Assembly: GCF_021869535.1 (NCBI RefSeq)
Contig: NW_026262734.1
Coordinates: 91,202,001 to 91,266,000, forward strand
DNA length: 64,000 nt
Direction: 5' to 3'
From: Mytilus californianus
Taxonomy: Eukaryota
In this document: piece by piece, positions 49,501 through 52,500 of the stretch
Layout of the letters: every line of letters begins with the position of its first letter
Numbering within the stretch: the first letter of the stretch is position 1
Program-made: the position numbers

Positions 49501-52500
49501 TAAACCTGCTGAGATCTGAACAGACAGTCGGAATGATTACTATAGGGCACAGAGAACCTTATAATTTGGATCCTAAGAACCCCTTTACCAATGCAAGCAG
49601 ATCCTGCTCCACATGTTACACCCATCATATTGCTCATGTAAATTATTGAGTTATAACTGTATAACCGATTATAATCTATTATCTGAATAATGCACTGCAT
49701 CTACCTTATACTGCACAGGTCACATGTACTTTAGCTAGGCCAATAGTTTCAGCTTTGCAATCAAAGATCTTGAGGGTTATAACCTGGCTTAAAAAAAATC
49801 CACACTTTTCTAATTTCAGTGCTTGCAGGGTGAAACTAAATTCAGAAAATAAAAATTTTCCTATGATTACTATAAAAAAATTGATGAAAAACTGAAATGT
49901 TCTGATACCTAAATGTTACCTCATACACATAAAAATACAGAAAAACCTCATAAAAAACATGAAACCTGTAATTATTCATGTCCATTTATAACAAATTAAT
50001 CAAGGAAACGATTAAAAATTGATAATTTAACAATTCAAAAGTTCATAATTTCAATTCAAAATTGAAAACACTATTTTGGATAGAACTGTTGCAAGGCATA
50101 TCACAAGATTTTCCTGTGGGTTTTGGTTCATTAAATGTCTCTTTTTTCTTTGCATTATCCTGTTTTTTGGTAGATTTACACGATTATCCTTTTCTGTCAA
50201 TGTTTTAATGAACTCAAGATTTATCTGCATTGTAGACAGATTCAAAATATTGATCATATCTTATCTTTGAGCATAGAATCAGCACAGGGCTCCTTTTTAC
50301 CATAGAATATAGAATACCACAGAACGACCAAAATATTGTCTAAAAATTATACAACAAAATGCAAAACTATGTACAGAGTAATTCATTTCTAAAATGAACA
50401 CTTCCTCTGTAGAATTCCCTTTCTTAGAATATTAAGATAAATATATGTATGTGTATGAGTACGTTGTTGATCGCAATACTGGCTTTAATACAACAGTGGA
50501 GATAGTGCCATCGATTTATTGAAGATGTGCAAGATCAGTTGTAAGCTTTCAACACTTGGTGCGCAAACTACAGTGTCTTCTCGATGGTTCCAATCAATCT
50601 CTGTTTACAAAAAGAAAGAGTCGGAATATTTTTATGTGTTTTGCTTGTTGGAATGTGAAAACACCTTGTGTTGTTCTTTACTTATTTTATCCACAACATT
50701 ATTTGAATGGTAATTTTTTAACTTCGTGACAGTAATTGTTTTCTTGGACTAGCTTTCTTGATATATTCGTCTGGTTCTAGAACATGTCTACTTGGTGAAA
50801 CATAATTAGTCTTTAGTATGATCGTCTTTTCTGGAATTCTTGGAGTTCCAGTTTTGAGAAACATCCTTCTTTTCTCAATTTATAGTCTACTGTAATGAAG
50901 TGTGTCGCCTGCCGCTACACCCCTTTTCAGCTTGTTGATGTTTTTAGTTAGTATAGGTCCCATACTATAGCTCCATACTCCATCATAGATATGAATAGCA
51001 AACTATATGCCTGTCATTGCCTTCCTGTGGGCAGTATCTCAAATTTCTTCCGTTGGATATATAAGTCGTCCATTTTAGATTTTTGAAATGTTTTAGGCCT
51101 AATTAGCATGGGTTATGTTGGACTAGTTGTAAGTGTCCGTTTAAACTATACAACTACTGGGTTTAGTTTTGTATGCTTATAATGTAGCATTGAACCTCAT
51201 TCCCCAGTTGTTTGTCCTTACTTCTACTAGTAGATGTTTAAGATCTTCGTGAAGAATGTCATGGTATTTTATTATCTTGGTGGTTCTATCAAATAGGCAG
51301 GCAGCCATCGGCTAATAATAATAAGTAGTTCTATAGTTTAAACGGACACATACTGACAATCTGACTGGATCCGGGATATTGTTTATATAACACAGAAGGA
51401 GTAACGGTTCTAAACCTTAGTCTGCTTTGATGAACGCCCGAGTCAATTGTTACGTCTTCATGTTCTTCTTCCTCTACTAACACTTTCATTTTTACTGTTT
51501 GTCAAGAACATTTTTAGCTAGTTGTTAAATTATCCTCTTAATTCTATATTCGTCAATTTTTATAGTAGTTTCTAATGGGGCACGGTGTCAAAAGCTTTGG
51601 AAAAATCTAAGATGGCAATGTCAGTTTGGAGTCTGGTTGTATATGCTTTCATAAGATCGTTTTAAGTGACTTGTGACTGGGTTTCGCATGTGTAGCCATA
51701 TATGAGTCGACGATTTAATGATTTTAAAAAATCCTGCTTTTCTAGATCTCTGCAATGCCTGCATAATTTGAAAAGATTATTATCAGTTCGGGTGTTATTT
51801 AACTTGCACTTTCAATGAGTATTCAGTTTGGGATTTCATCCGATCTAGAAACTTTTAATTGGTTCACGTCTATGAGCAGTTTTAGAGCCCCTTTTCTGTT
51901 ATAGGTAGGTTCGGTAATGGGTACTGGATGCGTCTTGTTGTTTCTGGAACTGTTGTGGACTTGTCTGTGGTGAAGACACAAGTAGGTAAAGTGTCTTTCC
52001 AGGATATTTGATTCCATTGTTTTCCCATGAAAAAAAACTGCCTTGTGAGAGCAGCCTTATTGACAAAAAAATAAGTTCCTTTTGTTTGTTATTACAGAGC
52101 ATTACAACTTCCACCAGAAACTTGGCTACGGTTCCATCTTAATCATGGAAGTATAACATGGATTACTATTGGACCAACTGGACAAGTTGGACTTAGAACA
52201 CTAGGAGAAACAGGATTTATGCCTGCTAATGTCACATTCTATTCACAGTTGTAGTACTTTCCTGCTTTTATGTTTATTGATATCATTTCTATATTTGTAT
52301 TAATATTAAATTTATAACATATTGTTTTGATTCAAACCATCATCAATATGAATATTGTAAACGAACTTATTTTCGCGGAAACTGTATTTCGCGTTTAGCC
52401 CTTTCTTTCCGGCTTTTCGGCATCAATTTATTTTTGCGTTGTTTTTTATTATCATGATGTAATTATATATGGAAAGGTCTAATGTTACGTATTCGTGACA

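What the first reader, a model, noticed from the sequence alone, without database searches (positions are those of the whole stretch)
52060..52254. Second, diverged but intact copy of the PGAM5 terminal exon
Seen: 3.7 kb downstream of copy A is a full copy with its own acceptor, same phase and an open frame. By eye about 11 synonymous changes versus about 8 replacements in the alignable part (A>T, LS>FH, VR>IG, R>Q, S>T, D>N), plus a different tail (VTSVL* versus VTFYSQL*). No other PGAM5 exon is duplicated. Inference: mutually exclusive last exons giving two C-termini, one losing two arginines; the excess of silent change suggests both copies were constrained.
Basis: partly seen in the sequence, partly recalled or inferred. 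Interest (0 to 1): 0.68.

Follow-up and report, generated by a model that had tools for sequence, protein, structure and literature searches.

The report
Duplicated last exon of mussel PGAM5
A mussel gene for the mitochondrial phosphatase PGAM5 carries a second, older and still intact copy of its last coding exon that has stayed under selection and probably gives an alternative protein end, although no transcript evidence could be checked.

Summary
The window is from a Mytilus mussel, not human. It holds a PGAM5 gene: exons at 28817-28989, 41948-42135, 43017-43231 and 45008-45141, and last exon A at 48341-48491. Copy B (52098-52254) has an identical 18-nt acceptor tract, the same phase and an open frame with its own stop.

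A and B differ at 24 of 138 alignable bases. ML dN/dS is 0.10-0.19, rejecting 1 (p<=3e-4) and 0.5 (p=0.033-0.001). A M. galloprovincialis gene model ends in an orthologous B exon: 45 of 51 residues identical, same tail and stop. All 6 replacements are conservative (P~0.001). B is therefore a selected coding exon, evolving faster than A.

The exon encodes the PGAM5 dimer interface. B loses two arginines, one matching human R269, which lies in the basic cleft.

Best reading: an alternative last exon made by tandem exon duplication, a known kind. Splicing from exon 4 to B is inferred, not shown.

It places 8 extra identical acceptors in front of exon A, each leading to a frameshifted, truncated tail.

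No RNA data or other mussel genomes were available.

The parts
28817..28989 (+). PGAM5 exon 1, coding part (ATG at 28817; N-terminal anchor and WDYNWD motif); donor ACAG|gtgaat
   Evidence: tblastn of M. edulis PGAM5 (P0003) residues 1-58, 93% identity; sequence; donor
41948..42135 (+). PGAM5 exon 2 (contains the RHG motif)
43017..43231 (+). PGAM5 exon 3
   Evidence: 100% identical to P0003 over 72 aa; boundaries
45008..45141 (+). PGAM5 exon 4 (...[11 protein letters not shown] + AG of the Arg codon); donor GTAG|gtaagt. This is the shared donor for A, for B and for the decoy acceptors
46031..46109 (+). Left arm of a long-range inverted repeat in intron 4. It could pair with 49481-49559 and loop out the array and exon A
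   Evidence: blastn minus-strand hit, 75% over 64 nt; predicted RNA duplex -59.9 kcal/mol against -22 +/- 4-5 for 300 shuffles and up to 300 random local windows, best control -35.5
47440..47480 (+). Decayed relic of the acceptor plus the 5' part of the last exon (acceptor lost)
47596..47655 (+). Second decayed partial copy at the head of the array; shares the GGAAGT state with copy B
47612..48402 (+). 83-bp tandem array, 9.5 copies. Each unit is 29 nt of intron (pyrimidine tract and cag acceptor) plus the first 54 nt of exon A. The acceptors end at 47676, 47759, 47842, 47925, 48008, 48091, 48174, 48257 (decoys) and 48340 (true)
   Evidence: TRF: period 83, 96% matches, score 1442; 9 of 9 acceptors identical from ttattacag through the first 22 exon bases (variable columns); units differ by 3.1% on average, and all 8 decoys give a 39-aa frameshifted end
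48341..48491 (+). Last exon, copy A (canonical; 49 codons plus TGA)
   Evidence: 98% and 96% identical to the tails of M. coruscus and M. edulis PGAM5
48496..48501 (+). First AATAAA after copy A, 5 nt after the stop; 7 more follow within 1.4 kb
   Evidence: These hexamers occur at 2.9 per kb across the window, so this is weak evidence
49481..49559 (+). Right arm of the inverted repeat, about 1 kb downstream of A's stop
52073..52097 (+). Acceptor tract of copy B (aagttccttttgtttgttattacag); 21 of 25 bases as in A, and the last 18 are identical
52098..52254 (+). Last exon, copy B (51 codons plus TAG)
52305..52310 (+). ATTAAA 51 nt after B's stop; AATAAA also at 52525 and 52685
   Evidence: background density applies, so this is weak

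Best explanation
Copy B is a functional alternative last exon of a Mytilus PGAM5 gene. It arose by an old tandem duplication of the terminal exon together with its 3' splice site.

Proposed mechanism:
- The single exon-4 donor (45141) joins either acceptor A (48340/48341), followed by cleavage at the polyA signals just after A, or acceptor B (52097/52098) in transcripts that run past A.
- The result is two proteins with the same membrane anchor, WDxNWD motif and catalytic core but different last 49 or 51 residues.
- That segment corresponds to human residues 241-289. It holds the alpha4-beta5 loop, strand beta6 and the fold-back tail, which form the 'F' dimer interface and part of the basic substrate cleft.
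- B keeps the interface positions matching human L242, F244 and R251. It changes the two residues after R251 (LS to FH), removes two arginines (matching human R265 and R269), changes the residues matching T278 and D284, and has a new tail (FYSQL).
- The expected effect is altered cleft charge, substrate handling or ring stacking, not loss of the fold.

Shown: the anatomy, the homology, selection on B's coding sequence, and its presence in a second species.
Inferred: the exon 4-B splice, mutual exclusivity and the biochemical effect.
For: 1. Anatomy. B is on the same strand, in the same phase, with an acceptor identical over 18 nt, an open frame and its own stop.

2. Selection between A and B. 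Nei-Gojobori dN/dS is 0.18 with dS 0.57. ML omega is 0.19, 0.15 and 0.10 under three codon-frequency models. LRT against omega=1 gives p=3e-4 to 3e-6; against 0.5 it gives p=0.033, 0.010 and 0.001.

3. Second species. The last 51 residues of P0002 ('PGAM5, partial', M. galloprovincialis) are a B-type exon. 45 of 51 residues are identical. It has the same length, the same VTFYSQL end, and the shared derived F12, G25, Q29, T38 and N44.

4. Conservative change. All 6 of the 6 differences between the two B exons score >=0 in BLOSUM62 (sum +9). Random single-base replacements of B reach that sum with P=0.0008, or 0.0012 if stops are excluded.

5. Fold context. B matches solved human PGAM5 chains over residues 1-44 at E=4e-14. 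It encodes core strands of the PGAM fold, so it only makes sense when translated after exons 1-4.

6. Functional site. In human PGAM5 the dimer contacts lie only in this C-terminal part, and removing the tail gives monomers (PMC5501728, passages read). R269 lies in the basic cleft, and R269E shortens filaments (PMC6355839, passages read).

7. Precedent. Mutually exclusive, tandemly duplicated terminal exons are described in Drosophila pip and PGRP-LC (PMC9013439, passages read).
Against: - No transcript evidence of any kind was available.
- Every full-length Mytilus PGAM5 protein seen uses tail A: 2 of 2 named orthologues (M. edulis P0003, M. coruscus P0004) and the unnamed mytilid-like P0006.
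- The only protein with a B tail (P0002) joins it to 199 unrelated residues with no Pfam domain. It is therefore no evidence for an exon 4-B junction.
- The search of 28-90 aa proteins found no B-type fragment. The 1.84-billion representative library held only P0002 above 70% identity, 1 of the 150 hits listed.
- A's acceptor is as good as B's, is met first by the transcription and splicing machinery, and is present 9 times. B may therefore be a minor form.
- B evolves faster than the rest of the protein: 6 of 51 against 8 of 287 replacements versus the M. edulis group (Fisher p=0.01). Replacements unique to B against those unique to A are 7:0, 6:1 and 7:1 with three outgroups.
- B replaces an arginine (R25) that is kept in all 5 A-type tails compared.
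- All selection tests rest on 46-51 codons.
- The polyA hexamers after B occur at background density.
Confidence: 0.6

Rival explanations
1. B is an unused or noise-level relic of a local duplication (a pseudo-exon). It was perhaps functional for a time after the duplication and is now drifting. PGAM5 is made only with tail A.
For: - All full-length Mytilus proteins seen carry tail A.
- B evolves faster than A and has lost conserved arginines.
- If the 14 silent differences are split evenly, B's own branch has omega of roughly 0.4-0.5. This is my arithmetic and is not significantly below 1.
- The acceptor identity is not decisive if a wider tract is counted (21 of 25 bases).
Against: - Pairwise omega is below 0.5 at p=0.033-0.001.
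- There is no stop or frameshift in 2 of 2 species, and both have the same length and stop.
- 6 of 6 between-species replacements are conservative, P about 0.001.
- The 18 nt before the exon are identical in A and B, while about 40% of silent sites differ.
Confidence: 0.27
2. B is translated, but as the last exon of a different transcript, as in the M. galloprovincialis model P0002. That would be a chimeric gene that captured a PGAM5 exon.
For: - P0002 joins a B-type exon to 199 unrelated residues.
- Parts of that N-terminus give weak, collinear matches at window 11353-12369 on the same strand. The best single E-value is 0.35-0.43; one match is a 7 of 7 residue word.
Against: - The N-terminal part has no Pfam family and no match in the A-B interval.
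- Its matches in the window contain stops.
- B encodes two core strands and the tail of the PGAM fold, which have no context without exons 1-4.
- P0002 looks like an automatic model. It is flagged partial, and I could not see its evidence.
Confidence: 0.08
3. A and B are an assembly artefact: two alleles or haplotypes laid in tandem.
For: Mussel assemblies are known for uncollapsed haplotypes (recalled, not from any call).
Against: - A and B differ at 17% of bases, with dS 0.57.
- The flanks are unrelated.
- A B-type exon with the same derived residues exists in another species.
- The array units carry their own substitutions.
Confidence: 0.02

Closest known systems
Tandemly duplicated, mutually exclusive terminal exons (Drosophila pip; PGRP-LC 3' variable regions), as reviewed in PMC9013439 (passages read)
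   Same: Homologous last exons lie in tandem downstream of one shared donor. Each has its own acceptor and end, giving alternative C-termini or 3' ends.
   Different: Here there are only two full copies, and use of the second is not shown. The first copy is preceded by 8 partial copies that hold only the acceptor and the first third of the exon. A docking/selector RNA structure of the PGRP-LC type was not looked for systematically. One long inverted repeat around exon A was seen.
Human PGAM5 long and short isoforms
   Same: One gene gives two C-termini. The short form has reduced dimerisation and no detectable phosphatase activity (PMC8607199, one passage; PMC11816071, one passage). The region exchanged in the mussel is the one that makes the human dimer interface.
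   Different: As I recall it (not from a call), the human short form replaces the segment with an unrelated short tail. The mussel's B is a homologous full-length substitute that keeps the fold elements. The decoy-acceptor products predicted here (39-aa frameshifted end) would be the closer analogue of the human short form.
Internal mutually exclusive exons from tandem exon duplication (surveys in PMC5740500 and PMC9741552; first read in passages, second seen in the search listing only)
   Same: Same origin, same length class, same phase and homologous sequence, giving a like-for-like swap of a structural element.
   Different: For terminal exons the choice involves cleavage and polyadenylation as well as splicing. 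PMC5740500 sets terminal candidates aside for that reason.
Second PGAM5-like gene of Mytilus (P0028 M. galloprovincialis, P0034 M. edulis)
   Same: It is a further PGAM5 homologue in the same genus, with a tail about 70% identical to A.
   Different: It is a whole separate gene with a different N-terminus and tail. It is not the source of B, which is closer to A (83% protein identity).

Membership tests
PGAM5 (histidine phosphatase superfamily) C-terminal exon | Sequence homology to the last ~49 residues of PGAM5 | tested here: met
   B against solved human PGAM5 chains: E=3.7e-14 over residues 1-44. B against Mytilus PGAM5 proteins: 80-88% identity. A: E=3.4e-17. No Pfam hit for the 49- or 51-aa pieces alone.
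PGAM5 (histidine phosphatase superfamily) C-terminal exon | Lies in a gene that has the rest of PGAM5 (anchor, WDxNWD, RHG, second catalytic His) | tested here: met
   Exons 1-4 match M. edulis PGAM5 (P0003, precomputed PF00300) at 89-100% exon by exon. The WDYNWD, RHG and CHANV motifs are visible.
Tandem-duplicated alternative (mutually exclusive) last exons | Two homologous exons next to each other, same strand, each with its own 3' splice site in the same phase | tested here: met
Tandem-duplicated alternative (mutually exclusive) last exons | Each copy has its own stop and polyadenylation signal | tested here: inconclusive
   Both have stops. AATAAA lies 5 nt after A and ATTAAA 51 nt after B, but such hexamers occur at 2.9 per kb on this strand.
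Tandem-duplicated alternative (mutually exclusive) last exons | Both copies kept by purifying selection | tested here: met
   Omega is 0.10-0.19, below 0.5 at p=0.033-0.001. The B orthologue in a second species is intact, with 6 of 6 conservative changes, P about 0.001. Small sample: 46-51 codons.
Tandem-duplicated alternative (mutually exclusive) last exons | Transcripts joining the upstream exon to each copy, never both | not testable with these tools
   No RNA-seq or cDNA collection was available. Protein searches found no exon 4-B protein.
Unprocessed pseudo-exon / duplication relic | Frame disruption, or substitution pattern as for neutral DNA | tested here: not met
   No stop or indel in 2 of 2 species. 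Omega=1 and omega=0.5 are both rejected.
Human-type PGAM5 short isoform (non-homologous replacement of the C-terminus) | The alternative end lacks the dimerisation strands and tail | tested here: not met
   B keeps all 46 alignable positions without gaps. Only the predicted decoy-acceptor products lack them.

The most novel reading that the evidence does not exclude
The mussel PGAM5 locus may be a three-way switch on the oligomerisation end of the enzyme.

1. Exon A gives the canonical dimer- and dodecamer-forming protein.
2. Exon B gives a variant with two fewer arginines at and near the basic cleft, so changed substrate handling or ring stacking. It may be able to form mixed dimers with A.
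3. The 8 decoy acceptors act as a splice sink. They yield truncated products resembling the human short isoform, or they push the balance towards B.

A 79-nt inverted repeat could loop out the array and exon A in read-through transcripts and so favour B.
Probability: 0.15. Interest if true: 0.6.

Novelty: new member of a known kind. Interest (0 to 1): 0.4.

Why it matters
PGAM5 activity depends on dimer and dodecamer assembly through exactly the segment exchanged here (PMC5501728, PMC6355839). A natural, selected pair of alternative interface exons would be a ready-made comparison for asking how that interface and the basic cleft tune activity, filament formation and partner choice. It would also show that invertebrates diversify the PGAM5 C-terminus by a different route from the human long and short forms.

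The decoy-acceptor array is a natural experiment in 3' splice-site choice among identical sites.

For annotation, the B exon is at present attached to an unrelated model in the one public protein that carries it.

None of this is a surprise in kind. Tandem exon duplication giving alternative exons is well documented.

Tried and rejected
- Search for short B-type fragments of 28-90 aa that might carry an exon 4-B junction: none found.
- Exhaustive search of representatives with B: only P0002 exceeded 70% identity among the 150 hits listed, of 353 with E<=0.001. Two unnamed proteins with two matched stretches each (P0062, P0063) are probably fused tandem genes. They were not fetched, because their source is unnamed.
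- Idea that a retrotransposon fragment abuts B's acceptor (minus-strand ORF 51823-52056): no Pfam support, 0 families. Dropped.
- Repeats flanking A and B that could have mediated the duplication: none found. The only A/B similarity is the 157-nt exon-plus-acceptor block.
- PolyA hexamers as evidence for B being a terminal exon: at background density. Not used.
- Literature search for PGAM5 plus Mytilus: 5 papers, none with either term in its title or abstract, judged from the listing only.
- Species of the window: not resolved beyond Mytilus. It differs from M. edulis at 8 of 287 residues, and A's tail is 48 of 49 identical to M. coruscus.
- Allelic or assembly artefact: rejected (see rival explanations).
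All searches were exon by exon, so no structure or complex prediction of a B-type protein was made.
- The structure, complex and atlas tools were not used.

Full report
**What the window is.** GC content is about 32% and there is no N. The gene in question is closest to PGAM5 of Mytilus mussels. I do not take the window for human, and nothing was held back on that ground. For that reason there is no structure or complex prediction for a B-type protein.

**Gene anatomy.** All parts are on the + strand.

| Part | Coordinates | Note |
|---|---|---|
| Exon 1 | 28817-28989 | ATG, anchor, WDYNWD motif |
| Exon 2 | 41948-42135 | RHG motif |
| Exon 3 | 43017-43231 | |
| Exon 4 | 45008-45141 | donor GTAG\|gtaagt |
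| Last exon A | 48341-48491 | |
| Copy B | 52098-52254 | |

Against M. edulis PGAM5 (P0003, 286 aa), the exons differ at 4 of 58, 2 of 63, 0 of 72, 0 of 45 and 2 of 49 residues (counted). Upstream lie P450-like reading frames (8-10 kb; named by eye only). Downstream, a voltage-gated-type K+ channel gene starts near 54.39 kb (BTB_2 E=3e-27, Ion_trans E=4e-35). B therefore lies between A and the next gene.

- B has the acceptor tract ...ccttttgtttgttattacag, with the last 18 nt identical to A's. It has the same phase: AG from exon 4 plus A gives Arg.
- B has 51 open codons and its own TAG.
- The A/B similarity covers 157 nt at 84.7% (E=5e-45) and stops at both edges of the acceptor-plus-coding block.
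- Exons 1-4 have no second copy in the window.

**Is B constrained?**
- A and B differ at 24 of 138 bases in 19 of 46 codons. Nei-Gojobori gives Sd=14, Nd=10, dS=0.57, dN=0.10 and dN/dS=0.18.
- A pairwise codon-model fit gives omega of 0.19, 0.15 and 0.10 under equal, F1x4 and F3x4 frequencies. Omega=1 is rejected at p=3e-4 to 3e-6.
- Omega=0.5 is the value expected if A were perfectly conserved and B had drifted freely since the duplication. It is rejected at p=0.033, 0.010 and 0.001.
- The constraint is unequal. Replacements unique to B against those unique to A are 7:0, 6:1 and 7:1 with an unnamed mytilid-like sequence (P0006), Sinanodonta (P0008) and a crinoid (P0009) as outgroups. Exact p values are 0.016, 0.125 and 0.070.

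**A second species.** The best hit of B is the C-terminus of P0002, 'PGAM5, partial' of M. galloprovincialis (E=1e-23).
- Its last 51 residues are a B-type exon. 45 of 51 are identical, with the same length, the same ...ANVTFYSQL end and the derived F12, G25, Q29, T38 and N44.
- The duplication therefore predates the split of these two mussels.
- The six differences (T/A, H/Y, I/L, I/V, T/N, R/K) all score >=0 in BLOSUM62, with a sum of +9. Six random single-base replacements of B reach that sum with P=0.0008, or 0.0012 without stops.
- B still changes faster than the rest of the protein: 6 of 51 against 8 of 287 (p=0.01). Against A alone, 6 of 51 versus 2 of 49 is not significant (p=0.27).
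- P0002 gives no support for an exon 4-B junction. Its first 199 residues are unrelated, have no Pfam family and match nothing between A and B. They give only weak collinear matches at 11.35-12.37 kb.

**What the exchanged segment does.** Alignment to solved human PGAM5 chains, together with the residue numbers in PMC5501728, gives the rule that exon residue i corresponds to human residue 240+i.
- In the human enzyme, the dimer contacts are confined to the alpha4-beta5 loop (L242, F244, R251), strand beta6 (274-277) and the tail. Constructs ending at 278 are monomers (PMC5501728, passages).
- F244E abolishes activity. R269 and R288 lie in the basic substrate cleft, and R269E and R288E reduce filament formation (PMC6355839, passages).
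- B keeps the positions matching 242, 244 and 251.
- B changes 252/253 (LS to FH), 265 (R to G), 269 (R to Q), 278 (S to T) and 284 (D to N), and has a new tail. Net charge falls from +1 to 0.
- My inference is a folded variant with a less basic cleft and a retouched interface. This is not tested.

Exon A is the last unit of an 83-bp tandem array (47612-48402; 9.5 copies, 96% matches).
- Each unit carries 29 nt of intron, including the acceptor, plus the first 54 nt of the exon.
- All 9 acceptors are identical from ttattacag through the first 22 exon bases (variable columns).
- Units differ by 3.1% on average, so the array is far younger than the A/B duplication.
- Because 83 is not a multiple of 3, each of the 8 upstream acceptors leads to 18 correct residues and then a frameshifted end, 39 residues in all. 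That product lacks beta5 in part, beta6 and the tail.
- Two older, decayed partial copies lie at about 47440-47480 and 47596-47655.
- Whether these decoys are used, and whether the array is fixed or specific to this haplotype, could not be tested.

**A possible long-range RNA structure.** Arms at 46031-46109 and 49481-49559 are inverted copies. The predicted duplex energy is -59.9 kcal/mol, against -22 +/- 4-5 for 300 shuffles and up to 300 random local windows; the best control reached -35.5. Pairing would loop out the array, exon A and its first polyA signals. It may equally be two copies of a mobile element. This was not pursued further.

**Comparison with what is known.**
- Tandem exon duplication giving alternative exons is well documented. 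Mutually exclusive duplicated terminal exons are described in Drosophila pip and PGRP-LC (PMC9013439, passages).
- Surveys of human mutually exclusive exons set terminal exons aside because polyadenylation is involved (PMC5740500, passages).
- Human PGAM5 has a short isoform with reduced dimerisation and no detectable activity (PMC8607199, one passage; PMC11816071, one passage).
- A search for PGAM5 plus Mytilus found 5 papers. None has either term in its title or abstract, judged from the listing only.
- I found no description of this duplicated exon. Public annotations could already list it, and the cluster look-up that might have shown this was switched off. No supplements were consulted.

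**Verdict.** B is a selected, intact coding exon that fits PGAM5 only, so an alternative last exon is the best reading (0.6). The splice itself is inferred, and B may be a minor form. The main rival is a relic that has recently been released from constraint (0.27). Taken together, this is a new member of a known kind, of moderate interest. The decoy-acceptor array is an unusual extra feature.

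Noticed in passing
47612-48402 (relics at 47440-47480 and 47596-47655): An 83-bp tandem array repeats the acceptor and the first 54 nt of exon A, giving 8 decoy acceptors identical to the true one. Each leads to a frameshifted 39-aa end. The unit edges share an ATAACTT-like word in intron and exon, which could have seeded the duplication by slippage (my inference).
   Followed up: partly
46031-46109 and 49481-49559: Inverted repeat bracketing the array and exon A. The predicted RNA duplex is -59.9 kcal/mol against about -22 for controls. 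It could loop out exon A in read-through transcripts, or it may just be two copies of a mobile element.
   Followed up: partly
11353-12369 (+): Weak collinear matches to the unrelated N-terminal part of the M. galloprovincialis model P0002 (residues 4-75; includes an exact 7-residue word; stops in the window's copy). Probably a repeat or a decayed exon set. This shows that P0002 is a doubtful model.
   Followed up: partly
54386-57025 and 62412-62939; also 53759-54181 versus 61785-62207: Two tandem copies of a K+ channel gene (BTB_2 tetramerisation domain plus Ion_trans) lie downstream of PGAM5. Their upstream regions are 69% identical.
   Followed up: no
about 31500-39700 (intron 1 of PGAM5): The 13-kb first intron is filled with large repeated blocks that hold short tandem units. 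Near-identical reading frames recur at 32646, 35705 and 38105 on both strands.
   Followed up: no
44380-44806: 159-bp tandem repeat, 2.7 copies, in intron 3 (TRF score 647).
   Followed up: no
8080-9804 (+): Reading frames that look like cytochrome P450 exons, upstream of PGAM5. Named by eye; no family search was run.
   Followed up: no
48477-48491 and 52240-52254: Both tails end in S-x-L (A: SVL; B: SQL, kept in M. galloprovincialis). From memory only, this resembles class I PDZ-ligand endings, and B's end resembles weak peroxisomal PTS1 variants. No test was run.
   Followed up: no
P0028 / P0034 (not in the window): Mytilus has a second PGAM5-like gene, with a different N-terminus and a longer acidic tail.
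   Followed up: no
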